Positions 14,838 to 24,424 of a stretch of 64,000 bases of DNA are shown one piece after another (within the stretch, counting starts at the first letter, position 1; each line of letters opens with the position of its first letter). Location: the NCBI GenBank assembly GCA_963799775.1, contig CAWCYD010000003.1, positions 256,001 to 320,000 of the forward strand. Direction: 5' to 3'. The position numbers and the translations under genes are program-made. This stretch comes from an uncultured archaeon. Lineage in GTDB: Archaea; Thermoproteota; Nitrososphaeria; Nitrososphaerales; Gagatemarchaeaceae. Below the pieces are notes generated by a model, which saw only the letters and a list, made by a program, of their open reading frames with translations, made no database searches and was not told the DNA's origin.

Positions 14838-15998
14838 ATGCGGTTCGACACCCGGGCGGTCCACGTTGGGAACGAGCCAGACGAGCTGACCGGAGCGGTG
14901 ACCCCTCCGATTTACACCTCGTCGACCTTCGCCCAGGCGAAGATAGGGCTCACAAAGGGCTACGAGTACTCTAGGTCCGGCAACCCGACCAGGGCGAGGC
15001 TGGAACGGGCCGTGGCCGACCTCGAGGGCGGCAAGTTCGGGCTGGCGTTCGCGTCTGGCCTCGCCGCCGAGACCGCCGTCGCGAGCCTGCTCAACAACGG
15101 CGATCATGTGATAATCTGCAACGACGTCTATGGCGGCACCTTCAGGCTCTTCAACCAGGTCTTCAGGAACTTCGGCGTCTCCTTCGACAGGGTCGACGCG
15201 AGAGACCTAAGCAAACTCGAGCGCGCGGTCAGACCTAACACCAGGATGATCTGGATGGAGTCTCCCACCAACCCATTGATGCTGGTCCTCGACATCGCTG
15301 GCGTAGCAAAGGTGGCGAAGGCACACGGGCTGACCCTTGCGGTGGACAACACCTTTGCCTCTCCCTGTCTCCAGAACCCGCTCAAGCTGGGTGCGACAAT
15401 CGTCGTCCACAGCACGACCAAATACATCGGCGGCCACAGCGACCTCGTGGGCGGCGCTCTTGTCACCTCAGACAAGGCGCTCTTCGAGAGGTTGAAGTTC
15501 CTCCAGAACGCGACCGGGAGCGTCCCTGGCCCGTTCGATTGCTATCTTGCACTCAGGGGCCTCAGGACGATCCACCTCCGGGTAGCCAGGCACTCGAAGA
15601 ACGCAGGGGCTGTCGCAAAGGCCCTAGCGAGCGACCGAGCGAGGGTGAAGGAAGTCTACTATCCGTTCCTCAAGGGATCTCCCTCGTACAAGCTGGCGAG
15701 GAAGCAGATGTCCGCCGGAGGAGGGATGATCGCCTTCAGGATCGTGGGAGGTTATCGAGCGGCGTCGAAGTTCCTAGAGTCCCTGAAGGTCTTCACGCTC
15801 GGTGAGAGTCTGGGAGGGGTAGAGTCACTGGCCGAGCATCCGTCCAAGATGACCCATGCCTCGCTACCGGCCGCCGAACGCAAGAAGATAGGCATCACGG
15901 ACGACCTGATACGCCTATCTGTCGGCATCGAGGACTCTGGCGACCTGGTCGAGGACGTCAGAACCGCTCTGAGAGCCGCGGTCCACACGCAAAGCTGA
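14838..15998 (+). CDS. cystathionine gamma-lyase/synthase
   Basis: YSRSGNPT, ESPTNP, DNTF, HSTTKYIGGHSD, ESLGGVESL. Confidence 0.95.
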   Translation: MRFDTRAVHVGNEPDELTGAVTPPIYTSSTFAQAKIGLTKGYEYSRSGNPTRARLERAVADLEGGKFGLAFASGLAAETAVASLLNNGDHVIICNDVYGGTFRLFNQVFRNFGVSFDRVDARDLSKLERAVRPNTRMIWMESPTNPLMLVLDIAGVAKVAKAHGLTLAVDNTFASPCLQNPLKLGATIVVHSTTKYIGGHSDLVGGALVTSDKALFERLKFLQNATGSVPGPFDCYLALRGLRTIHLRVARHSKNAGAVAKALASDRARVKEVYYPFLKGSPSYKLARKQMSAGGGMIAFRIVGGYRAASKFLESLKVFTLGESLGGVESLAEHPSKMTHASLPAAERKKIGITDDLIRLSVGIEDSGDLVEDVRTALRAAVHTQS

Positions 15999-16182
15999 GT
16001 TTTCCCCTTCTCGGACCCCAGGATTCGAGGGATTTTACAGCAGGAGACGATGGGCAGTTCGGCAACTTAAGACAATCGTCGATTTGCCGCATGGAACGCA
16101 CCCGTATAATGCGTACGGGATGTTCAAGCACTCACAGAACAATGCAACTGGATAACTGCAAGATTTTGAATCTATCGCTCGT

Positions 16183-17017
16183 GGATTCTGTTACGTCTTT
16201 TCTCATGACGCCGCTGGCGCACGACGCGACGGGCTGGCCCTGCTCCACTCCATCGGCTCGGAGGACTTCCTGCGCGGGAACTTGTGAAACCGGCTTTCCG
16301 GTTTGGCGATTTTGGAAGTCCGGAAGGAGGGCCCTCTCTCTGGTGGCCTTCTCGATTAGCTCGCTCCATCCGTTTGTGACCGGGATTCCGGCCTTCTGTG
16401 CCGGTCTCATTCCGTTTATTTGGCGTTCGCGCACGTAGTTGTAATTCACCACGTAGCCGTCTAGGATGTTCTTTGCCGTCTCGTTGTGCTTGAGGCTCCG
16501 CATCGGGCGCGTCCTCTCCTTTAATGTCTCGTGGAGCCTTTCAACGATGTTACTTGTTTGCCTTGCTCTGATTCCGACTCTTTGCACAAATTCGACCTTA
16601 TCGACTTTGTATCGGGAGTAGAACACGCGGTTGAAGGCACTCTGATAGACGTGGCTCCCATCGACGAATACTGCCTTTGGCCTCGTCTTGCTCATGTCCA
16701 GCCCTTTTTGGAAGATTGCGACGGCGTCCTCGAATGTCCTTGACCCTGACAGGTGTGACGCCATCAAGAACTTCGTGTGCTCATCAATCATCTCCCAGAA
16801 CCATTGATCGCGGCCTTCGCACTCGATGACCGTCTCATACTCATGCCATTTCCCTTGGGTTAGGAAGTTTCGCCTTCTGAACTTCCTAAACTGCTAAATC
16901 CGGAACACGGTTTCACAAGTTCCCGCGCAGGAAGTCCTCCGAGCCGATGGAGTGGAGCAGGGCCAGCCCGTCGCGTCGTGCGCCAGCGGCGTCATGAGAA
17001 AAGACGTAACAGAATCC
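16183..17017. mobile_element. 835-bp non-autonomous element with 110-bp perfect TIRs and 6-bp TSD GCTCGT
   Basis: 16183-16292 is the exact reverse complement of 16908-17017; GCTCGT at 16177-16182 and 17018-17023. Confidence 0.85.
16330..16860 (-). pseudogene. IS6-family (archaeal type) DDE transposase fragment
   Basis: GKWHEYET (first D replaced by Y)...WFWEMID...VFVDG...NIVERLHETLKER...YNYVR; N-terminus missing. Confidence 0.8.
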
Positions 17018-17065
17018 GCTCGTAAGAGCCTCAGTCATCCAAAAGATTCACACAATCGTCAGGGG

Positions 17066-17455
17066 CTAGACGGTTTCCGACTGGAGTTTCCTTTCGAGCT
17101 CCTTCTCGGCTGCTCTCGCGCCCTTCACTATTCTTCCCTGTCTCGTAGCGAATCGGTAGTCTAAGGCGGCAACGAGAACTAGCGCCGCCGTTACAAAGAG
17201 CAATGCTAACTCTAGAACGAGAAGACTCGGATCCGTCAGGTTGACTGTTATCACTCCCTCTCCGCTCGCGAACGGGTAGACAATTTGGAAAGCATACGAC
17301 AAGCTCAGGAAGGCTCCGAGGATAACCGTCAAAATCGAGAGCGACCGCATCCTCCTGTGGGTCGTCTCGATATGCTTCGCAAATTCTTCGTGTGCTTCCA
17401 CCAGCGTCGCCCCGGGCGATCTCTCTGCGTCGCTGCCTGTTGACAAGCTCTTCAC
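17066..17455 (-). CDS. hypothetical 2-TM membrane protein
   Basis: 129-aa ORF with two hydrophobic helices. Confidence 0.6.
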   Translation of the reverse strand: MKSLSTGSDAERSPGATLVEAHEEFAKHIETTHRRMRSLSILTVILGAFLSLSYAFQIVYPFASGEGVITVNLTDPSLLVLELALLFVTAALVLVAALDYRFATRQGRIVKGARAAEKELERKLQSETV

Positions 17456-17494
17456 TCGCTCAAAATGGAACCTTAAAGGCTTCCTGACCGGAGG

Positions 17495-17760
17495 TCAGTT
17501 TCACGCCGCTCTCCCACTGGTTCCACAAACTCATGTAATGAGTATAGGCATTGAGCCCTTCCTCCGTGATTCTGTGGATTTCGTGGTCGGCCTCGATGCG
17601 CTTAGCTACCCAACCGTTCGCGTGCATCGGCTCCAGGTCCCCGGCCTAGCCGGCCGTAATTGATGTTGCAGCGCTGAGCAAGCCGCGAGGAATTCATTGG
17701 CCCTTCCTTCAACGCGGCCAATATTTTCATCGCGTTAGCCAACGAGTCCCCGTGGGCCAT
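17495..17760 (-). CDS. archaeal winged-helix regulator (frameshifted or decayed)
   Basis: MKILAALKEGPMNSSRLAQRCNINY, then RITEKG in another frame. Confidence 0.6.
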
Positions 17761-17928
17761 AGTGACCGCTTCGAAAAGGCGGGTTCCCGTCGATAAAAGC
17801 ATGCCAACCAGTGTTTCTACTGACCGAACGTCCGGACCAGGTGTCAGAAATCGTCTATAAGCTGGGGGCGACCTCTCCTCTCATGACTTCGACTTTCGTG
17901 AAGTCGGCGTGGTTGTGAGACTCGCTGC

Positions 17929-18969
17929 TTGACGGATGTTCCTGCGCTAGTTCTCAAAAGTCGCCTTGCAGAATTGATTTCGCGGAGCTCCGCTCTCAGA
18001 CTTGCAGCTGATCCGACGGACCATCGAGCCTGTTGCATTGCTCGGTTCGGCGGAACCCACGCACAAACTCGCGATTGCCCGGCGCGCCTCTTTTGCGAAG
18101 ATGGGGGAATCGTGATACCCACCGGCCTGAGCGATGGCCCTTTTCGAAGACCGCGATCACCTAACTTTCGAATCCCCAGACTCATCCCGCTGGTGAACCC
18201 GCTCGACGAGAGGACATTCGCCCATAGACATCTCGAAGGCGTCTTTCCGATGCTGGCTGTCCAATTATGGAAGATAGTGAGGAGCGGTCCCGCGTACCGT
18301 ACGGCCGTCTCGAAGGGACTGAACCGGATGCTGAGGTTCGATGGGAAGATCTTGATCTCCAGCGTACTGCCGGACGCAGATATCATAGAGAGGGGTGTGG
18401 ACTGGTTCATCGACGCGATTAGGGAGCTGAAACCTGATGCTGTGACGACTTGGGATGTCCCGACCTATTCCGACCATCCTAGGATGGCCTCGCTCAACTG
18501 GATGATGACCGGGCTTGATGCAGCGAGACGGATGTCACTCGAGCTTGACACGCCTCTTATTGGGCTCGCGGCAGGAGCTGACATCCGCCAAGTGGGGTTG
18601 TCATCGTCCTGCTTACGGGCGATGGGTTTCGAGCACCAGGCACTCGCATGCCACGAGTTGCTGGTCGAGAGACGACACCGATACCTGAGATCGTGCGCGG
18701 AATTGGTAAAAAGCAACTGTTCTCACATGACGTTGCTGTCCTGTTCTCATCCAAACCTGTTTGAGAAGTTCAAGATGGCGGACCATTTTGTCGGGATGTC
18801 CTGGTTCAACCAGGCCATCAGGGGACGGCGACCGCGGAGCAGGTCAAACAAGGTTGGTCACGGAAGCAAGGAGACCATCGACTTGACGAGGGAGAATCTG
18901 GTTGAAACCCTCCGCGCTTTACGCGAGTCATTCCCAACTGACCACGAGGAGGCGAACGACACTGGGTAG
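17929..18969 (+). CDS. DUF4417-like / transglycosylase(TGT)-like TIM-barrel protein
   Basis: PDADIIER...DAVTTWDVPTYSDHPRMASLNW...PLIGLAAG resembles the DUF4417 core (D..fE...avlsPDFSlY.DmP...wN); Cys-rich N-terminus; recognised by eye only. Confidence 0.5.
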   Translation: MTDVPALVLKSRLAELISRSSALRLAADPTDHRACCIARFGGTHAQTRDCPARLFCEDGGIVIPTGLSDGPFRRPRSPNFRIPRLIPLVNPLDERTFAHRHLEGVFPMLAVQLWKIVRSGPAYRTAVSKGLNRMLRFDGKILISSVLPDADIIERGVDWFIDAIRELKPDAVTTWDVPTYSDHPRMASLNWMMTGLDAARRMSLELDTPLIGLAAGADIRQVGLSSSCLRAMGFEHQALACHELLVERRHRYLRSCAELVKSNCSHMTLLSCSHPNLFEKFKMADHFVGMSWFNQAIRGRRPRSRSNKVGHGSKETIDLTRENLVETLRALRESFPTDHEEANDTG

Positions 18970-19507
18970 GGGCAATTACTCGTCGCACTTTCCAGGGGCG
19001 AGTCAGACTGCGAACAGTTCGTCTCTTTCCGGTAAGGCAAGTGCCTCGGGTCAAACGATCTTGCCGATTGAAGGGCTCACCAACGACCAGTCTACCTGGA
19101 CAAATCCCGTTCTTGCCACTAAAGACGACGAAATCGTTCTCTATAGGGAGTACGTGCCCGCCATGTGTACTGCATTCGTCTATCAGAGAGAAGGTGGCAG
19201 GATGGAGGTCTACTTTTCTGATATCAAAGGATATCACTCTTTTGTTGCGGATAATGTATTGCCCGACGGACGGCTCGTTGAGAACAAATCGGGACTCGTT
19301 CCTATCGAGGCAAGACGTCAATTTTGGAACTACGTGATGCATATTCAGGAAACCGGAGGCTCGCTCGACCTCAATTTCTTCCGCAGTCCACTCACTGGCA
19401 AGGTGGGACCGACCGCGCCGTTCGCTTCAATCTTAAACGAGGCATCAAGAAGATACAAGATAGACATTCACTTCTTTGACTACGATTGGTGGGAGGAGCT
19501 TCTGTAA
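18962..19507 (+). CDS. hypothetical protein with (M)GRGNYSS leader, Ser-rich linker and globular C-terminal domain
   Basis: SD-like GGAGGCGA at 18948-18955, CTG start at 18962 overlapping the upstream stop. Confidence 0.6.
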   Translation: MGRGNYSSHFPGASQTANSSSLSGKASASGQTILPIEGLTNDQSTWTNPVLATKDDEIVLYREYVPAMCTAFVYQREGGRMEVYFSDIKGYHSFVADNVLPDGRLVENKSGLVPIEARRQFWNYVMHIQETGGSLDLNFFRSPLTGKVGPTAPFASILNEASRRYKIDIHFFDYDWWEELL

Positions 19508-19508
19508 C

Positions 19509-19859
19509 ATGTCAGAATACAAGGCCATGGAAGCATTGTCTTGGCTCGCGAAGAACAAGAATCCGCATGCGTTTGCGGGGAATCGCTTCCAAACAACCGC
19601 TGACACGATTGGAGCCGTCAAGCGACTCTACTCGGCCGGCGCTACGCGCGTCTCCATTGGACCTCCGTTGGAAGAGCCCGAAAGACTTCGAGAGGACGGC
19701 GGGCCTTATGCGGACGTCTTGGAAATTGCGTTTCCAAAAGACAAGATCAGCCAAATAATGTCCGTAGTCAGGACTCTGGCTCCCGATGAGGGAGGAGAAT
19801 TGAAAGACGTTCTCAAGATTGACTACATGCACCGCAGAATGATATTATGGTGGGATTGA
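19509..19859 (+). CDS. hypothetical protein (possible immunity/partner protein)
   Basis: ATG 1 nt after the upstream stop; EALSWL...FAGNRF...LYSAGA...YADVL. Confidence 0.7.
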   Translation: MSEYKAMEALSWLAKNKNPHAFAGNRFQTTADTIGAVKRLYSAGATRVSIGPPLEEPERLREDGGPYADVLEIAFPKDKISQIMSVVRTLAPDEGGELKDVLKIDYMHRRMILWWD

Positions 19860-19910
19860 GAGTTCGCGGTCCGCCAAGGCCGTAAATAATGCCGAAGCAA
19901 GAGGCACTCC

Positions 19911-20132
19911 GTGAGAAGAGCTACCTTAGGTTTAGTCACAGTCGCTTGTATCGGCGCCTTCTACGTGTTCTTCCTCTTCGTTCCGATTTTCCAGGGAATC
20001 GCGGGTGACTGTATCTTTACGCCCGGTGAGCAGCAATCCCAATCCCTTTCATTTCCTCTGATTGGGATAGGAATGACGATTGCCGGAGGACACCTTTCTT
20101 GGCGATCCAGTCCAATGCCTTCCTGCTGGTGA
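19911..20132 (+). CDS. small membrane or secreted protein
   Basis: Hydrophobic N-terminus; TATA-like TAAATAA upstream. Confidence 0.5.
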   Translation: MRRATLGLVTVACIGAFYVFFLFVPIFQGIAGDCIFTPGEQQSQSLSFPLIGIGMTIAGGHLSWRSSPMPSCW

Positions 20133-20258
20133 CCCTCGCGACACGTCAATCGTCGTTGGAAATGCTCAGAAATCACCCGTAGATTGGACAGAGCCCTTGG
20201 TCGAGGTGCAATCCTTATAAGACAATCGTCGAAGGCCTGCCGAATCGCGTGAAATAGG

Positions 20259-20570
20259 TTGGCAAGATTTCTGGCCTTCGTGGACATCTTTGTGGACTCC
20301 CCCTTAATGGACGACGTAGTGCAGGCGCTGATCAAGCTCGAGAACCTCGAAGAGCTATACGAGGTCACCGGCGAGTTCGACGTCGTCACGCTCCTGTCCG
20401 CGAAAGACATCGAAGAATTCCGAGACGTCCTGAAGAACAAGATCATGAAGATCAAGGGAGTCAAGAGCACGGTGAGCTCGGTGGTGCTAAAGGCCTACAA
20501 GGGCCCCAGGTGCATTGCTGAACCGCCTACCGCCAACGAGCCACTGAAGGCAAAACCCGTTCGTCAATAG
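20259..20570 (+). CDS. stand-alone Lrp/AsnC ligand-binding (RAM) domain protein
   Basis: YEVTGEFDVV...IMKIKGVKSTVSSVVLK; no HTH. Confidence 0.88.
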   Translation: MARFLAFVDIFVDSPLMDDVVQALIKLENLEELYEVTGEFDVVTLLSAKDIEEFRDVLKNKIMKIKGVKSTVSSVVLKAYKGPRCIAEPPTANEPLKAKPVRQ

Positions 20571-20617
20571 GCGAGGCTGCAGCAGTCTCGCCAGCAGAGG
20601 AGGAAAGTGCAAAGTGA

Positions 20618-22275
20618 ATGATAGACATATCTCAACTAATCTCAGTAATCCTGATTCTCGGGGGCACGATGGCCGTAGCGTGGCTCATCGCCTCCTACAT
20701 CACAAGGATCTACACGAGGGCACCTAGTCGCCTCGACAGGTTCCTCGCGCCTATCGAGAACTCGATCTACAAGCTCCTGGGTGTCGATCCCTCGCACGGG
20801 ATGTCTTGGAAGGAATACTTCCTAGCAGGACTGATCGTCAACATCGCCCAGATGGCGATAGCGTTCGGCATCCTCATGCTGCAGGGGAGCCTTCCGCTGA
20901 ACCCGATGGGGTTCAAGGGGATCAACTGGGACCTCGCCGTCAACACCGTGATTTCTTTCGCGACCAACACCAACCTGCAGCACTACAACGGTGAGACGAC
21001 GCTCTCGTACTTCAGCCAGATGGGCGCAATCCAGTTCCTCCAGTTCACATCGGCCGCCACTGGCATCTGCATGGGGGTGGCAATGGTCCGAGGGTTGATC
21101 GTCGGGTCGAAGGACATGGGTAACTTCTACGTAGATTTCACCAGGTCGCTCACGAGACTGCTCCTTCCGTTCTGTTTCATCGCCGCCCTGATCCTAGTCT
21201 GGATGGGCGTGCCTCAGACCATCGGAGGCTACCTCCCCATAACGACGGTGCAAGGTGCCACGGGCTCGGTCCTCGTGGGTCGCCTGTGGCCTCGCTCGTC
21301 TCGATCATGCAGCTGGGCACAAACGGCGGCGGATACTACGGAGCAAACTCCGCTCATCCGTTCATGAATCCGAGTCCTTCCTCCGACGTGCTCGAGATCT
21401 GCCTCATGCTCTTGTTGCCGACAGCCCTTGTCTTCGTCTTTGGCGAGCTTCTGGGCAAGAAGAGGGAGTCAAGACCTGTGCTCATCGGCGCCTATGCGCT
21501 CTTCGTCATAGATCTGGCGATCGCGTTCATCCCGACCATCCCGCAGGTAGCGGCTGGGATAGAGACGAGGATCGGGGGATTCTTCTCCGCCTTTTGGACC
21601 GTCGTGACCACTGCTGTGACGACGGGGTCCGTAAACACGTCGCTGTCGGCGATGCACCCTCTCGTGATACTTGGGGGCTTCATGGGGATGCTGATCCAAG
21701 CCACGCCCGGAGGGAAGGGTGTCGGATTGGCATACATGGTCATGTACATCGTGATAACCGTCTTCATCGTGGGACTCATGTCCGGGAGGACTCCTGAGTA
21801 TCTCGGGATCAAGATCAACTCACGCGACGTGAAGATAGTCCTGGTGGCCTTCCTGATTCATCCCATAGTCATCCTTGTCCCGACCATACTCGCATACGCC
21901 ACCGGAGCCGCTCAGGCAATTGGGGTATCTGGCAATTCGCTTGGATTCACCCAGATTCTCTGGGAGTACACTTCAGCCGCAGCAAACAACGGGTCTGATT
22001 TCCTAGGAGCGTCTGCGAATACCGTCTTCTTCAACATCACCACCGGGGCTGTGATCTTCATAGGACGATACGCTCCAATAGGATTGATGCTGGCCCTCGC
22101 TGGTTCGGTAATCGGAAGGAAGAGGAGCTCTGACGCCGGCGGCCTCAGGACTGACAGCTTCACCTTCTCGGCCGTGCTAATCGGGAGCATACTGATCCTC
22201 GTGGTGCTGACCTTCCTCCCGTTCCTGGCGCTCGGGCCTATTCTTTCCTACTTCCAGGGGAATGGGTATGCATAG
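20618..22275 (+). CDS. kdpA: K+-transporting ATPase subunit A (frameshift near 21280)
   Basis: SFATNTNLQHY, LGTNGGGYYGANSAHPF, GRTPEYLG, SAAANNGS. Confidence 0.95.
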
Positions 22276-24424
22276 CGAGGGCGACGCTTCTCAAGACGGC
22301 AGGATGCACGAGGCGATGCTACGCGGCAGAAAGATGTCAGTGATCTCTGGCAGAGTCCTCGCCGACTCCATTGTTCGCCTGAACCCGACAAAGCTGGTAT
22401 CCAACCCGGTCATGCTGATCGTGGAGCTGACGTTCTTCATCGTGGCCGCGATGGCGGTCTATCCGCAGGGCTTTGCTCCGGTTGCAAGTGTGAGCGAGAG
22501 GACATTCTATGTTGAGATCGCCGCGATTCTGCTGATCACGGTCTGGTTCAGCACGTTGTCGGATTCCTTGGCAGAGCAGCAGGCCAAGAACACTGCGAGC
22601 AGCCTGCGCAAGCTCGAGAGCGAGGTCCCGAGCAAGAAGATAATGACCCAGGGCTGGACAAGGACAATCGTCCAGGCATCCTCGAAAGAGCTGCGGAAGG
22701 GAGACTTGGTGCTCCTCGAGAAAGGCGACGTCGTCCCGCTCGACTCCGACGTGTTGGAGGGAATCGCCATGGTCGATGAGTCGCTGATGACCGGAGAATC
22801 TGCGCCTGTAAAGAAGGCCCCCGGCGACGTCCTCATCGGAGGCTCCAGGGTCGTGAGCGACACCCTCACCGTGAGGATCAACGCAAACCCGGGAGAGACC
22901 TACGTTGACCAGATGATACAGATGGTGGAGTCGTCGAAGAGGCCCAAGACTCCCAACGAGCAAGCCGTGACGATGGTCCTCATCGGCCTGACCGCGATCT
23001 TCACGATAATCATCGGCTCGCTGCTCGGGCTGTCGATAACGCTCAACCTCGGCGCGGACCTCTCCGTACTGATAGCCCTCTACGTCTGTCTCCTCCCAAC
23101 GACGATAGGGGCGCTGCTGCCGGCGATCGGACTGTCAGGGATATCCAGGCTCTACGCGAGGAAGATAGTGGCGAAGTCTGGGAAGGCGATCGAGACGGCC
23201 GGCGACGCCGACGTCATCCTTTTGGACAAGACCGGGACCATCACAGTGGGGAACAGGCGCGCGATAGAGTTCACCCCCCTCAACGGCCACACGGAGAAGG
23301 AGGTCGGGGAGGCCGCGTTCCTGTCGTCCTGGTCCGACGACACCCCCGAAGGGAGGAGCATTATCAACCTGGCCTACGACAAGGGTTTCGTCCCTCGCGA
23401 ACTCAATTCCTTGGCGCTCTCCGAGGTCCGCGAGTTCTCCGCTAGCACGCGGACGAGCGGAGTGAAGATAATGAGAGGCCTCGGGTTCGTCCCTGCCAAG
23501 GCCGACAAGTCAGGAGAGGCGCGAATGAGGTTCAGCAGGAAGTACGCCGAAGAGAACGGGTCTTCGGAGATCGAGATAACGAAGGGCGCTCCGGACTCGA
23601 TAAAGGAGATTCTAGGCTCGGTCTCGCCCGAATATGAGACGATCGTAACCCGGATCTCTTCAGCCGGAGAGACCCCGATGGCGGTCATGAGGAACGGGGA
23701 GCCGTTGGGGATAATCCGGCTGAAGGACGTCATGAAGGAGGGGATTAAGGAGAAGATTCAGGGAATTAGGACGCTCGGCATCCGTCCCGTCATGATCACG
23801 GGTGACCAGCCCCTCACCGCGAAGTCGATCGCGGAGGAGGTCGGCATAACGGAGTACGTGCCAAGGACTAAGCCCGAAGACAAGTTCGGGATAGTCAAGA
23901 AGGAGCAAGCCCAGGGGAGGATAGTCGCGATGATAGGCGACGGGACCAACGACGCCCCAGCCCTCGCGATGGCCGACGTCGGCCTGGCCATGAACGCTGG
24001 GACCGAGGCCGCGAAGGAGGCTGCGAACATGGTGGACCTTGAGTCGAACCCCGCCAAGATCATCGACGTCGTGCTCCTAGGGAAACAGCTCCTGATGACG
24101 AGAGGCGCTGTCACAGCATTCAGCATCGCGAACGACGTCGCAAAGTATTTCGCGATAATGCCGGTGCTCTTCGCCGCGACCATCCCGCAGCTCGAGGCGC
24201 TCAACATCCTGGGGCTGGGCCTCCACACGGCCGTGCTCTCCGCGTTGATCTTCAACGCAATCATCATCCCGCTGCTCATCCCGCTCGCCATGCGAGGGGT
24301 CTCGTTCAAGCCCGCCGACACGATGACGATATTCCTGAGGAACGTCCTGATCTACGGAATCGGCGGCGTAATCGTCCCCTTCGTCGGGATTAAGCTGATC
24401 GACGTCCTGATATCGGCCTTGTAG
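22262..24424 (+). CDS. kdpB: K+-transporting ATPase subunit B
   Basis: TGES, CLLPTTIG, DKTGT, GDGTNDAPALA, TAFSIANDVAKYF. Confidence 0.97.
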   Translation: MGMHSEGDASQDGRMHEAMLRGRKMSVISGRVLADSIVRLNPTKLVSNPVMLIVELTFFIVAAMAVYPQGFAPVASVSERTFYVEIAAILLITVWFSTLSDSLAEQQAKNTASSLRKLESEVPSKKIMTQGWTRTIVQASSKELRKGDLVLLEKGDVVPLDSDVLEGIAMVDESLMTGESAPVKKAPGDVLIGGSRVVSDTLTVRINANPGETYVDQMIQMVESSKRPKTPNEQAVTMVLIGLTAIFTIIIGSLLGLSITLNLGADLSVLIALYVCLLPTTIGALLPAIGLSGISRLYARKIVAKSGKAIETAGDADVILLDKTGTITVGNRRAIEFTPLNGHTEKEVGEAAFLSSWSDDTPEGRSIINLAYDKGFVPRELNSLALSEVREFSASTRTSGVKIMRGLGFVPAKADKSGEARMRFSRKYAEENGSSEIEITKGAPDSIKEILGSVSPEYETIVTRISSAGETPMAVMRNGEPLGIIRLKDVMKEGIKEKIQGIRTLGIRPVMITGDQPLTAKSIAEEVGITEYVPRTKPEDKFGIVKKEQAQGRIVAMIGDGTNDAPALAMADVGLAMNAGTEAAKEAANMVDLESNPAKIIDVVLLGKQLLMTRGAVTAFSIANDVAKYFAIMPVLFAATIPQLEALNILGLGLHTAVLSALIFNAIIIPLLIPLAMRGVSFKPADTMTIFLRNVLIYGIGGVIVPFVGIKLIDVLISAL

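What the first reader, a model, noticed from the sequence alone, without database searches (positions are those of the whole stretch)
17495..19859. Candidate new system: DUF4417/TGT-like enzyme, 'GRG'-leader protein and partner, divergent from a wHTH regulator
Seen: three coupled genes. The first encodes 346 aa with a Cys-rich N-terminus and the core DAVTTWDVPTYSDHP. The second starts at an SD-preceded CTG and reads (M)GRGNYSS, then a low-complexity Ser linker, then a globular domain. The third is a 116-aa gene starting 1 nt later. From recall, not verified here: the core resembles DUF4417, a mobile-element family with a TGT-like barrel, and such genes in bacterial prophages are often followed by proteins beginning MGGRG.SS with variable C-termini. 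Inference: this is an archaeal version. The barrel may recognise the Gly-Arg-Gly N-terminus and modify it, or attach it to nucleic acid by base exchange, delivering a variable effector domain, with the third gene as immunity. A DNA base-modification (deazaguanine-like) role is the alternative.
Basis: inference. Interest (0 to 1): 0.78.

Follow-up and report, generated by a model that had tools for sequence, protein, structure and literature searches.

The report
TGT-like barrel with leader-tagged effector
An archaeal three-gene cassette pairs a remodelled tRNA-transglycosylase-type barrel protein with a probable nuclease toxin whose Gly-first leader peptide recurs on unrelated effectors in relatives, plus a likely immunity gene, so it looks like an undescribed cousin of the Cap10 arrangement of type IV CBASS.

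Summary
Genes 17929-18969, 18962-19507 and 19509-19859 are tightly coupled. ORF1 is a confident TGT-superfamily barrel (family profile vs ArcTGT 1iq8 E=1.9e-17; AF2 pLDDT 91.6; best Foldseek hit 1iq8). It is not DUF4417. It has no Asp at either ArcTGT catalytic position (0 of 32 family loci) and no Zn motif.

In 28 of 31 family loci a gene whose product begins (M)G starts at or over the ORF1 stop; the control rate is 74 of 1931. The domains behind that leader differ: REase-like here, ThsB-TIR, HD-CE, LAGLIDADG and others. ORF3 accompanies only the REase-like domain, as a cognate immunity gene would.

The closest known case is type IV CBASS. There Cap10, a Zn-less TGT-family barrel, holds the M(G/S)G(G/S)GG N-terminal tail of its CD-NTase. 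This cassette has no CD-NTase, no QueC-like Cap9 and no Asp nucleophile.

Best reading (about 0.5): a mobile defence or conflict module in which the barrel docks and controls a leader-tagged effector. Binding has only weak computed support (ipSAE 0.37, best control 0.00). My literature searches found no description of it. I rate it a new variant of a known kind.

The parts
17929..18969 (+). ORF1, 346 aa: a TGT-superfamily (beta/alpha)8 barrel of an uncharacterised archaeal family. It has no Zn motif and no Asp at the positions of ArcTGT D95 and D249. D149, D176, Y180, P184, G216, Q221 and E243 are conserved.
   Evidence: Single sequence vs 1iq8 E=0.0099. Family profile A1 vs 1iq8 E=1.9e-17. 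AF2 pLDDT 91.6, pTM 0.90. Foldseek best hit 1iq8, E=6.9e-10, TMq 0.63. Column table over 32 loci.
18946..18952 (+). GAGGAGG, a Shine-Dalgarno-like motif 9 nt upstream of the ORF2 CTG, inside the ORF1 3' end.
   Evidence: Read. GAGG/GGAGG lies 8-9 nt upstream of the CTG in L002 and L005 too, while the ORF1 C-terminal residues differ.
18962..18991 (+). ORF2 leader (M/L)GRGNYSSHF, starting at a CTG that overlaps the ORF1 stop.
   Evidence: Conserved as LGRG[NS]Y..H[FVL] in 6 of 6 alignment rows that reach the N-terminus. Silent changes in the ORF2 frame. The same Gly-first start occurs on non-homologous partners.
18992..19075 (+). ORF2 low-complexity Ser/Gly-rich linker, variable in sequence and length among homologues.
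   Evidence: Alignment A4. AF2 pLDDT below 50 for residues 1-52.
19076..19507 (+). ORF2 globular domain, about 143 aa, probably a PD-(D/E)xK (restriction-endonuclease-fold) nuclease effector. Invariant D97, E107-N-K109 and C-terminal DWWEEL.
   Evidence: Invariant columns. Protein-atlas feature search gives Tox-REase-7 as best hit, score 0.94, 174 of 256 features shared. No Pfam hit. AF2 model poor.
19509..19859 (+). ORF3, 116 aa, starting one base after the ORF2 stop. Probable cognate immunity protein or antitoxin of the ORF2 domain.
   Evidence: 10 homologous clusters, 8 of them 116 aa and 2 longer (122 and 128 aa), no Pfam domain. Present in 4 of 4 other loci that carry the REase-like domain and in none of 32 other loci compared.
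17460..17802 (-). Divergent winged-helix regulator gene (HTH_45-like), frameshifted in this copy near 17640-17646.
   Evidence: tblastn of the intact L002 and L005 proteins gives two pieces in different frames. L002 homologue: PF14947 E=1.4e-6.
17066..17455 (-). 129-aa predicted two-helix membrane protein downstream of the wHTH gene. It travels with the cassette in L002 and L005 but not in L007.
   Evidence: 48-51% identity in L002 and L005; none found in L007. No Pfam family above threshold.

Best explanation
The cassette is a small, horizontally mobile conflict (defence or addiction-type) module built on a remodelled TGT-fold protein.

ORF1, ORF2 and ORF3 are translated as a coupled unit. 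ORF2 is the effector. It has a short Gly-first leader ((M)GRGNYSSHF), a flexible Ser-rich linker and a probable PD-(D/E)xK nuclease domain. ORF3 is its cognate immunity protein.

ORF1 is not a base-exchanging transglycosylase. It keeps the barrel, the guanine-edge-binding Asp (D176) and its own invariant polar pocket, but has Ser or Thr and a small or hydrophobic residue where TGT has its two catalytic Asp. By analogy with Cap10-CdnD of type IV CBASS, I infer that the N-terminal tail of the effector inserts into the ORF1 pocket. The barrel would then tether and gate the effector until a trigger releases or activates it. The trigger could be a competing base-like ligand or a nucleic acid of an invader. 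The divergent wHTH protein would regulate transcription.

Shown: the fold, the residue replacements, the gene coupling, the conserved leader on interchangeable effector domains, the ORF3/REase-domain co-occurrence, the patchy distribution and the duplication.

Inferred: physical binding, the tail-in-pocket geometry, nuclease activity, immunity, the trigger and the defence role.
For: Fold and remodelled site:
- establish the TGT fold.
- In 32 family loci the ArcTGT D95 position is S or T in 32 of 32. The D249 position is V, I, A or S in 32 of 32. D149, D176, P184, G216 and E243 are kept in 32 of 32.
- The Zn motif CxCxxC..H is present in distant relatives but absent from the ORF1 subfamily.

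Coupling:
- The ORF2 start overlaps the ORF1 stop, and ORF3 starts 1 nt after the ORF2 stop.

Leader rule:
- 28 of 31 family loci have a coupled NTG-GGN gene, against 74 of 1931 controls.
- Gly at position 2 occurs in 7.5-8.4% of crude ORFs of the genome.

Interchangeable effectors behind the leader:
- ThsB_TIR, E=3.9e-19.
- HD-CE, E=5.3e-8.
- LAGLIDADG_3, E=1.7e-16.
- REase-like here.

ORF3 occurs only with the REase-like domain.

Defence-type surroundings in a relative: AbiGi-like and 8xMP genes beside L006.

Mobility:
- 2 of 201 genomes of the order carry a relative, and none of the 5 other same-genus genomes does.
- There is a second, partly decayed copy in the same genome.
- The same three genes sit in three different contexts.
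- An IS-like element lies alongside and GC dips over the islet.

Precedent: Cap10, a Zn-less TGT-family barrel, binds the M(G/S)G(G/S)GG tail of its partner in its active site (bioRxiv 10.1101/2025.04.06.647259).

Complex prediction of ORF1 with ORF2: weak support.
- ipSAE 0.37 as the median of 0.37, 0.39 and 0.13; best of 3 controls 0.00.
- The mark was reached by 58 of 80 solved complexes and 2 of 110 mismatched pairs. A score of 0.60 or under was seen in only 7 of those 80 and in both mismatches.
- The runs agree in at least 21% of contacts, and partner pLDDT is at least 64.
Against: - Binding is only weakly supported, and no contacts were reported.
- No experiment exists, and no RNA data set holds the region.
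- The start codon of ORF2 in the window clade is a CTG. If translation starts at TTG 18902 instead, the motif would be internal.
- The ORF2 nuclease assignment rests on a motif and a language-model lead. There is no Pfam hit and the model is poor.
- The invariant polar pocket of ORF1 (D149, D176, Q221, E243, often K215) looks like an active site, so ORF1 may be an enzyme and not merely a dock.
- No PADLOC model matches ORF1 at all, and ORF2 gives only a weak DruB hit, E=0.0042.
- The LAGLIDADG partners and the 9-19 copies per genome in one genus fit a selfish element as well as defence.
- Most family loci come from a few related genera, so the 28 of 31 overstates independence. About seven partner kinds are distinct.
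Confidence: 0.5

Rival explanations
1. True deazaguanylation-type chemistry. Gly2 of ORF2, after Met removal, would be conjugated to a nucleobase or similar group by an enzyme encoded elsewhere, for example the second QueC-family paralogue of the genome. ORF1, like Cap10, would bind and perhaps transfer the modified N-terminus.
For: - The partner starts M-G and carries a Gly/Ser-rich tail, as in type IV CBASS CD-NTases. In the distant subfamily the leader is MGGGS or MGSGS, close to M(G/S)G(G/S)GG.
- The barrel lacks the Zn site, as Cap10 does.
- 26 of 32 family members have Lys at the position of ArcTGT Q169. Cap10 uses a Lys (K154) to read the base, but the equivalence of the two positions was not tested.
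- The genome holds two QueC-family loci.
Against: - No QueC-family gene lies in or near the cassette. The genome's matches are on another contig or more than 800 kb from the window.
- In five genomes rich in the family, QueC-type matches are weak and lie on other contigs than the listed barrel genes, or more than 90 kb from them.
- ORF1 has no Asp at the nucleophile position or at the first base-reading position. Cap10 needs both of its equivalents, D248 and D73.
- The window clade has Arg or Lys at position 3, not Gly or Ser.
Confidence: 0.15
2. A Dpd-like restriction-modification pair. ORF1 would exchange a base in host DNA or RNA as a self-mark, and the ORF2 nuclease would cut unmarked invader DNA.
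For: - The TGT fold is established.
- A probable nuclease follows the barrel gene here, and LAGLIDADG or HD domains follow it in relatives.
- TGT homologues act as DNA modifiers in the Dpd system (passages read in PMC12839542).
Against: - Neither catalytic position holds an Asp in 32 of 32 loci.
- Similarity to DpdA is negligible (7ui4, E=0.38-0.55).
- No preQ0 pathway, DpdB or DpdC-type gene was seen among the cassette ORFs scanned.
- One relative pairs the barrel with a TIR domain, which is not a nuclease.
- A restriction enzyme would not need an immunity protein or a conserved N-terminal leader.
Confidence: 0.1
3. Chiefly a selfish element: a toxin-antitoxin addiction pair (ORF2 and ORF3), or a homing-type nuclease module, with ORF1 as an accessory factor for its spread or maintenance. 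It would have no host-defence role.
For: - There are two diverged copies in one genome, each with broken genes, and an adjacent IS-like element.
- The cassette sits in different contexts.
- The distant subfamily has 9-19 matches per genome in four genomes of one genus, some with stops, paired with LAGLIDADG proteins.
Against: - It does not explain why unrelated effector domains, including TIR and HD-CE, share one leader and one barrel partner.
- L006 lies among defence-type genes.
- Defence systems are themselves mobile and patchy, so the mobility evidence does not discriminate.
Confidence: 0.15
4. ORF1 and ORF2 are one protein made by +1 ribosomal frameshifting at GGG-UAG-G, so the 'leader' would be an interdomain linker.
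For: - The heptamer CTGGGTAG is kept in the window, L002, L005 and, as TTGGGTAG, in L006. ORF2 is in the +1 frame in all of these.
- A low-complexity linker follows the junction.
Against: - In L010 the ORF1 stop lies 9 nt further upstream (TGA). The GGG-TAG is replaced by GGC-AAG, while the TTG-GGC start of ORF2 is kept.
- In the distant subfamily the partner lies in any of the three frames relative to ORF1 and begins with ATG.
- No fused protein was found with ORF2 as query in the 'longer' search, which is weak evidence.
- Full-length ORF1 homologues end at the same place.
Confidence: 0.03

Closest known systems
Cap10-CdnD of type IV CBASS (Wassarman et al., bioRxiv 10.1101/2025.04.06.647259; main text read)
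   Same: - A TGT-family barrel without the Zn site is encoded next to an immune partner.
- The partner starts M-G and carries a flexible Gly/Ser-rich N-terminal extension.
- In Cap10 that tail sits in the former nucleobase pocket.
   Different: - There is no CD-NTase, no Cap9 (QueC-like) and no Cap11 here.
- The partner is itself an effector: REase-like, TIR, HD-CE or LAGLIDADG.
- ORF1 has no Asp at the positions that correspond, via ArcTGT, to Cap10 D73 and D248.
- The window-clade leader is G-[RK]-x-x-Y, not (G/S)G(G/S)GG.
- The hosts are archaeal.
- Direct comparison with Cap10 was not possible. No chain of that name appeared.
Archaeosine tRNA-guanine transglycosylase (ArcTGT/TgtA, PDB 1iq8)
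   Same: It is the best sequence and structure match, covering the whole catalytic barrel. Asp130 is kept as D176.
   Different: - About 20% identity.
- No C-terminal domains (346 aa against 582 aa).
- D95 and D249 are replaced, and the Zn motif is lost.
- The genome has its own ArcTGT-like gene elsewhere (518-aa frame).
DpdA, the DNA-guanine transglycosylase of the Dpd system (PDB 7ui4)
   Same: A TGT-fold protein used in a defence context.
   Different: The sequence match is only marginal (E=0.38-0.55). No Dpd partner genes are present, and the catalytic positions hold no Asp.
DUF4417 (PF14386)
   Same: One distant homologue (P0013) gives a sub-threshold match to the region around the conserved PD..T.D..TY motif (E=3.8e-4, 20.4 bits against a cut-off of 28.9).
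   Different: ORF1 gives no match. DUF4417 is described as a phage-enriched domain fused to ParB-CTPase folds (passages read in bioRxiv 10.1101/2025.10.10.680097). No phage relatives of ORF1 were found.
Polymorphic-toxin type REase-fold toxin plus immunity pairs (Tox-REase-7, PF15649)
   Same: A small C-terminal domain with a D...ExK signature is followed at once by a small cognate gene that co-varies with it.
   Different: There is no Pfam match and no secretion or delivery domain. The N-terminal part is a 10-residue leader plus linker tied to a TGT-like partner.

Membership tests
TGT superfamily (tRNA-guanine transglycosylase fold) | (beta/alpha)8 barrel with profile-level similarity to a solved TGT | tested here: met
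   Profile A1 vs 1iq8 E=1.9e-17 over the barrel. AF2 pLDDT 91.6. Foldseek best hits are 1iq8 (E=6.9e-10, TMq 0.63), then bacterial TGTs.
TGT superfamily (tRNA-guanine transglycosylase fold) | Pfam PF01702 match above the gathering score | tested here: not met
   ORF1 has no PF01702 hit at E<=1. 4 of 10 homologues give sub-threshold hits, the best at 19 bits against a cut-off of 26.3.
Catalytically competent transglycosylase (TGT / ArcTGT / DpdA type) | Asp nucleophile (ArcTGT D249; the role of this residue is recalled from the TGT literature and matches D279/D248) | tested here: not met
   V288 in ORF1. V, I, A or S in 32 of 32 family loci.
Catalytically competent transglycosylase (TGT / ArcTGT / DpdA type) | First active-site Asp (ArcTGT D95, in the DSG motif) | tested here: not met
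   S144 in ORF1. S or T in 32 of 32 loci. An invariant D149 lies five residues later. Its position in space was not examined.
Catalytically competent transglycosylase (TGT / ArcTGT / DpdA type) | Base-edge-binding Asp (ArcTGT D130) | tested here: met
   D176, kept in 32 of 32 loci.
Catalytically competent transglycosylase (TGT / ArcTGT / DpdA type) | Zn site CxCxxC...H | tested here: not met
   Absent from ORF1 and its four closest homologues, present in distant homologues.
DUF4417 (PF14386) | Match to the family HMM | tested here: not met
   No hit for ORF1 at E<=1. No match in the whole genome at E<=10. 1 of 10 homologues is sub-threshold.
Type IV CBASS (Cap10 with CD-NTase, Cap9, sometimes Cap11) | Partner gene encodes a CD-NTase | tested here: not met
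   ORF2 has no Pfam or NCBIfam family and only a weak PADLOC DruB match, E=0.0042. Its best lead is an REase-fold toxin.
Type IV CBASS (Cap10 with CD-NTase, Cap9, sometimes Cap11) | QueC-like Cap9 in the operon | tested here: not met
   PF06508 matches in the genome lie at C3:1838010, C3:1181415 and on contig C2. The window is C3:256001-320000.
Type IV CBASS (Cap10 with CD-NTase, Cap9, sometimes Cap11) | Partner N-terminus M(G/S)G(G/S)GG on a flexible extension | tested here: inconclusive
   A Gly-first leader plus a low-complexity linker is present, but the motif is (M)GRGNYSS. Distant subfamily partners read MGGGS or MGSGS.
Type IV CBASS (Cap10 with CD-NTase, Cap9, sometimes Cap11) | Direct sequence or structure similarity to Cap10 | not testable with these tools
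   No chain named Cap10 appeared in the PDB sequence or Foldseek results. ORF1 has no PADLOC hit, and I do not know whether that library holds a Cap10 model. The VIA-align libraries were not available.
PD-(D/E)xK nuclease / Tox-REase-7 (ORF2 domain) | D...(D/E)xK catalytic signature | tested here: met
   D97 and E107-N108-K109 are invariant in 9 of 9 aligned sequences.
PD-(D/E)xK nuclease / Tox-REase-7 (ORF2 domain) | Family HMM match or fold match | tested here: inconclusive
   0 of 9 members hit any REase Pfam family at E<=10. The AF2 model has pLDDT 47. The atlas feature search gives PF15649 at 0.94 with 174 of 256 features shared. The PDB profile search finds nothing relevant.
Toxin-immunity pair (ORF2 and ORF3) | The small adjacent gene co-varies with the toxin domain, not with the rest of the system | tested here: met
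   ORF3 homologue present in L002, L005, L007 and L008 (4 of 4 loci with the ORF2 domain) and in none of 32 other loci compared. Neutralisation was not tested.

The most novel reading that the evidence does not exclude
An archaeal family of TGT-derived barrels has turned the old nucleobase pocket into a reader of a portable, genetically encoded N-terminal leader (Gly2, then Y-x-[RK]-x-[FL]). That leader has been moved onto at least seven unrelated partner domains, among them REase-like, TIR, HD-CE and LAGLIDADG.

In the window clade the Arg or Lys at leader position 3 would stand in for the conjugated 7-deazaguanine of type IV CBASS. That would make a QueC-independent, 'hard-wired' counterpart of deazaguanylation. 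Displacement of the leader by a viral base or nucleic acid would then fire the effector.

One observation fits this. The barrel's Lys215 is present in 26 of 32 loci and is replaced by Ser or Ala exactly in the 5 loci whose partner has R or K at position 3. Those 5 loci form a single clade, so the pattern may be inherited together by descent.
Probability: 0.25. Interest if true: 0.88.

Novelty: new variant of a known kind. Interest (0 to 1): 0.72.

Why it matters
Until 2025, TGT-fold proteins were known only as nucleic-acid base exchangers. The Cap10 work then showed one that grips a modified protein N-terminus. This cassette suggests the principle is wider and older. A whole archaeal family of TGT-derived barrels lacks the transglycosylase catalytic Asp pair and any linked QueC enzyme, yet is always followed by a Gly-first, leader-tagged partner with swappable effector domains.

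If the tail-in-pocket model holds, three things follow:
- It gives a compact, testable example of how an immune effector is docked and gated by a short portable peptide.
- It identifies new candidate archaeal defence systems, which are poorly charted.
- It offers a natural comparison for working out what Cap10 does after binding its partner, which the Cap10 authors state is still unknown.

It also flags a multi-copy TGT-like/LAGLIDADG gene pair in another archaeal lineage. That pair may be a new kind of selfish or defence element.

Tried and rejected
Fold of ORF2. AF2 with 9 sequences gave pLDDT 47, so I ran no fold search on it. The PDB profile search for ORF2 found nothing relevant. A Pfam scan of all 9 members at E<=10 gave no nuclease family.

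ORF3. It has no Pfam or NCBIfam family above threshold. The atlas gave only a weak lead to YfbO-type clusters. The recognition value was 1867, below the 2300 that most known families reach. I do not use it.

Phage and virus links. tblastn of ORF1 and P0013 against 50,697 phage records found no match. Two IMG/VR scans found no relative. Foldseek against BFVD gave only generic viral TGT/DpdA-like barrels at TMq 0.45-0.52.

Fused forms. The 'longer' search with ORF2 scored none of 1563 candidates. This is weak evidence.

RNA elements. There was no Rfam match at E<=1 in 15500-21000.

Expression. No RNA holder was listed. Only two DNA runs held about 0.05 of the sampled words.

Lipidation. An N-myristoylation-like reading of the MG start was considered and dropped. 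Position 6 is Tyr, not Ser or Thr, and I know of no such transferase in archaea. This rests on recall, not on a test.

Stop-codon readthrough. In 8 distant loci the partner is in frame behind a single stop. This was rejected as a general rule because the other loci use the other two frames.

Literature. Searches for DUF4417, transglycosylase/LAGLIDADG/archaea/TGT-like, deazaguanylation, Cap10/TGT/N-terminal glycine/archaea/effector and HD-CE with transglycosylase found no description of this module. Supplementary files were not consulted, and tables of type IV CBASS or QueC neighbourhoods there could bear on this.

Papers, and how much of each I saw:
- 10.1101/2025.04.06.647259: outline and the whole main text.
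- PMC13082051, PMC12839542, 10.1101/2025.10.10.680097 and 10.64898/2025.12.03.692087: matched passages only.
- All others: search listing only.

Full report
**What is there**

The + strand carries three tightly packed genes.
- ORF1: 17929-18969, TTG start, 346 aa.
- ORF2: its frame is open from 18902, but its conserved product begins at CTG 18962. That CTG overlaps the ORF1 stop, TAG 18967-18969. The frame ends at TAA 19505-19507.
- ORF3: ATG 19509 to 19859, 116 aa, one base after the ORF2 stop.
- GAGGAGG lies at 18946-18952, 9 nt before the CTG.

On the - strand, divergent from ORF1, lie two more genes.
- A winged-helix gene at 17460-17802. It is frameshifted in this copy near 17640-17646.
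- A 129-aa membrane-protein gene at 17066-17455.

An IS-like element with 145-nt inverted arms (16183-16327 and 16873-17017) and a DDE_Tnp_IS240 transposase ORF lies next to them. GC falls to 0.50-0.56 across 16000-20500, against about 0.60 on both sides.

**ORF1 is a TGT-fold protein, but not a DUF4417 member or a standard transglycosylase**

Pfam gives nothing for ORF1 at E<=1, and NCBIfam gives only TIGR00432 at E=0.053. The TGT relationship shows up at the following levels.
- ORF1 alone matches archaeosine tRNA-guanine transglycosylase 1iq8 at E=0.0099.
- A search of 1.84 billion representatives found 98 relatives at E<=1e-3, 33 at E<=1e-10 and 6 at E<=1e-30.
- A profile of 25 of these matches 1iq8 at E=1.9e-17 over the whole barrel.
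- The AF2 model is confident (pLDDT 91.6, pTM 0.90, eight strand-helix units).
- Its best Foldseek hits are 1iq8 (E=6.9e-10, TMq 0.63) and then bacterial TGTs.

DUF4417 does not match ORF1 or anything in the genome at E<=10. One of ten homologues gives a sub-threshold hit.

Using the 1iq8 alignment, I tabulated key columns in 32 family loci.

| Position (ORF1 numbering) | ArcTGT equivalent | Residue in the family |
|---|---|---|
| 144 | D95 | S or T, 32 of 32 |
| 288 | D249 | V, I, A or S, 32 of 32 |
| 176 | D130 | D, 32 of 32 |
| 149, 184, 216, 243 | - | D, P, G, E, each 32 of 32 |
| 221 | - | Q, 31 of 32 |
| 180 | - | Y, 30 of 32 |

The roles of the ArcTGT residues are recalled from the TGT literature. 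They agree with the catalytic Asp described.

The CxCxxC..H zinc motif is present in distant relatives and lost in ORF1 and its four closest homologues. So the pocket is conserved but re-tooled. Classical base exchange is unlikely.

**The gene after the barrel always begins with Gly**

A second cassette in the same genome (L002, ORF1 71% identical) and a Nitrososphaerales MAG locus (L005, 68%) keep the junction CTG-GGT-AGR-GGN-ARY-TAC. The silent changes fall in the ORF2 frame, and a GAGG motif lies 8-9 nt upstream, although the overlapping ORF1 C-termini differ.

Two more distant loci settle what is conserved.
- In L006 (46% identical) an in-frame stop lies two codons before TTG-GGT-AGA, so the product must begin MGRWIY. 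A Gly-rich linker and a ThsB-type TIR domain follow (PF08937, E=3.9e-19).
- In L010 (41%) the ORF1 stop has moved 9 nt upstream and the GGG-TAG is gone, but TTG-GGC-AAG is kept. The product is MGKHKYSK, then a Gly-rich linker and an HD-CE domain (PF24391, E=5.3e-8).

This argues for independent initiation and against a +1 frameshift fusion.

A profile search of 401 genomes of the phylum gave most hits to the housekeeping ArcTGT of about 510 aa. About two dozen genomes had very strong matches (E below 1e-80) to a Cys-rich, Zn-motif subfamily. In that subfamily the next gene starts at or over the stop with one of the following.
- MGGGS, MGSGS or MGSGK, followed by (R/A)(I/V)(K/R)QYERRF. This partner carries a LAGLIDADG_3 domain (E=1.7e-16 in L015).
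- MGAGT on a different domain (L023).
- MGQYK or MGQLK, downstream of barrel genes fused to a metallophosphoesterase domain.

Counted mechanically, 28 of 31 family loci have a coupled NTG-GGN open frame of at least 80 codons starting within -30 to +15 nt of the barrel's stop. The control is 74 of 1931 long frames in the window's genome. The three misses are as follows.
- L024 and L029 have decayed copies.
- L035 shows no such gene.

In L004 the script's hit at -17 lies in the frame that an ATG (MGGGGF) opens 47 nt before the stop.

The loci are far from independent, since many are paralogues within one genus. About seven partner kinds are distinct. The leaders may share more than Gly2: YSRHF in the window clade (for example P0100) resembles YERRF in the LAGLIDADG group.

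**ORF2 and ORF3**

ORF2 homologues are rare: 7 clusters among 5.8 billion. All share three features.
- The leader LGRG[NS]Y..H.
- A variable low-complexity linker.
- A domain with invariant D97, E107-N-K109 and a DWWEEL end.

That signature suggests a restriction-endonuclease-fold nuclease. So does the feature-based best hit, Tox-REase-7 (0.94, 174 of 256 features shared). The alpha-beta-beta-beta-alpha-beta pattern of the low-confidence model points the same way. No HMM or fold match confirms it.

ORF3 has 10 homologous clusters. Eight are 116 aa and two are longer (122 and 128 aa); 9 of the 10 end in LWWD. It is found in 4 of 4 other loci that carry the ORF2 domain and in none of 32 other loci compared, including the TIR and HD-CE loci. 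That is the behaviour of a cognate immunity protein or antitoxin.

**Mobility and state of the copies**

- ORF1 relatives occur in 2 of 201 genomes of the order. None of the 5 other same-genus genomes has one.
- The three genes sit in three different surroundings: the window, L002/L005, and L007.
- The wHTH plus membrane pair accompanies them in the window, L002 and L005 but not in L007. L006 and L010 have a different wHTH family (HTH_34) in the same divergent position.
- In the window the wHTH gene is frameshifted. In L002 the wHTH is intact, but ORF1 has TGA in place of a Gly codon and ORF3 is frameshifted. These may be real decay or assembly errors. I could not check reads.

**Comparison with what is known**

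The literature search turned up the direct precedent. In type IV CBASS, Cap10 is a TGT-family barrel without the Zn site. It binds, in its nucleobase pocket, the N-terminal tail of its CD-NTase partner.
- That tail starts M(G/S)G(G/S)GG.
- After Met removal, Gly2 carries 7-amido-7-deazaguanine installed by the QueC-like Cap9.
- Cap10 D73, S74, D122 and K154 read the base, and D248/H226 are needed for defence.

The cassette shares the barrel, the loss of Zn, the adjacent partner and the Gly-first flexible tail. It lacks the following.
- The CD-NTase.
- Any linked QueC-family gene. The genome's PF06508 matches lie far away, and one sits beside a QueD-like gene, as in the ordinary pathway. Five genomes rich in the family show no QueC-type match near the listed barrel genes.
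- An Asp at both positions that correspond to D73 and D248.

I could not compare ORF1 with Cap10 directly (the VIA-align libraries were unavailable).

**Mechanism**

The best-supported reading is a two-part sensor/regulator plus effector module with an immunity gene. The barrel docks the effector's leader and controls it.

Physical association has only weak computed support. The ipSAE runs were 0.37, 0.39 and 0.13, median 0.37, and the best of three controls was 0.00. The mark was reached by 58 of 80 solved complexes and 2 of 110 mismatches. A score of 0.60 or under was seen in only 7 of those 80 and in both mismatches. Contact agreement was at least 21% and partner pLDDT at least 64.

One observation fits a tail-in-pocket model. 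The family's Lys215 aligns with ArcTGT Q169. It is present in 26 of 32 loci. It is replaced by Ser or Ala exactly in the five loci whose partner has Arg or Lys at position 3, and by Leu in L004. This is one clade, so it may be shared ancestry.

The rivals are a trans-acting conjugation as in CBASS IV, a Dpd-like R-M pair, a purely selfish TA or homing element, and a frameshift fusion. They are weighed in their own sections.

**Verdict**

The DUF4417 label, the prophage recollection and the base-exchange chemistry are not.

Noticed in passing
window 16132-17017: An IS-like element with 145-nt inverted arms (16183-16327 and 16873-17017, 92% complementary) and a DDE_Tnp_IS240 transposase ORF (16132-16791, - strand). 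It lies directly beside the cassette. The genome holds only one distant relative, at 67% identity.
   Followed up: partly
window 17460-17802; L002 1477-2559 and 3087-3441: The two cassette copies of the genome carry complementary defects. In the window the wHTH gene is frameshifted. In L002 ORF1 has TGA in place of a Gly codon and ORF3 is frameshifted. These could be decay or assembly errors.
   Followed up: partly
window 20618-22275: The KdpA-like gene upstream of the KdpB-like gene (22262-24424) appears split into two overlapping frames (20618-21367 and 21286-22275). This suggests another frameshift or sequencing error in this assembly. The Kdp names come from reading the translations and were not tested.
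   Followed up: no
L011-L029 (genomes G205-G373), e.g. L015 1498-3540: A Cys-rich, Zn-motif subfamily of the barrel is paired with an MGGGS-leader LAGLIDADG_3 protein. A third conserved gene (VWGWGD...NCEKYVSKRW) is often present. Four genomes of one genus have 9-19 matches each, several with internal stops. It may be a selfish element or an expanded defence family.
   Followed up: partly
L031, L034, L036, L037; proteins P0016, P0018, P0019, P0025, P0030: Forms of 530-620 aa fuse the barrel to a C-terminal calcineurin-like metallophosphoesterase domain. They are followed by genes beginning MGQYK or MGQLK, and one of those has a weak Cro/C1 HTH match.
   Followed up: partly
P0012, P0013, P0015 and L012-L023, N-terminal 60 residues: The distant subfamily starts with CxxxCxxC followed by CxxC and further Cys. 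The spacing resembles an Fe-S or Zn cluster site. ORF1 keeps only C35, C36, C50 and C56.
   Followed up: no
L006 1145-6106: The TIR-type cassette sits between an AbiGi-like gene (PF10899, E=4.9e-5) and an octameric membrane protein family gene (8xMP, PF24838, E=2.8e-34). This is a defence-island-like setting.
   Followed up: no
L010 2418-3728: The HD-CE-type cassette is followed by a 436-aa protein with weak squalene-hopene-cyclase-like repeats and then a membrane protein. Neither resembles ORF3.
   Followed up: no
L041 1411-2214 (G000 contig C3, about 1.838 Mb): A second QueC-family paralogue (267 aa) lies apart from the QueC/QueD-like pair on contig C2, and that QueC itself looks split. Its role is unknown. 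It is the only candidate for a trans-acting Cap9-like enzyme.
   Followed up: partly
L005 2913-3761: In the MAG relative, a 282-aa Ser/Thr-rich protein gene is inserted between the wHTH gene and ORF1. It is absent from the window and from L002.
   Followed up: no
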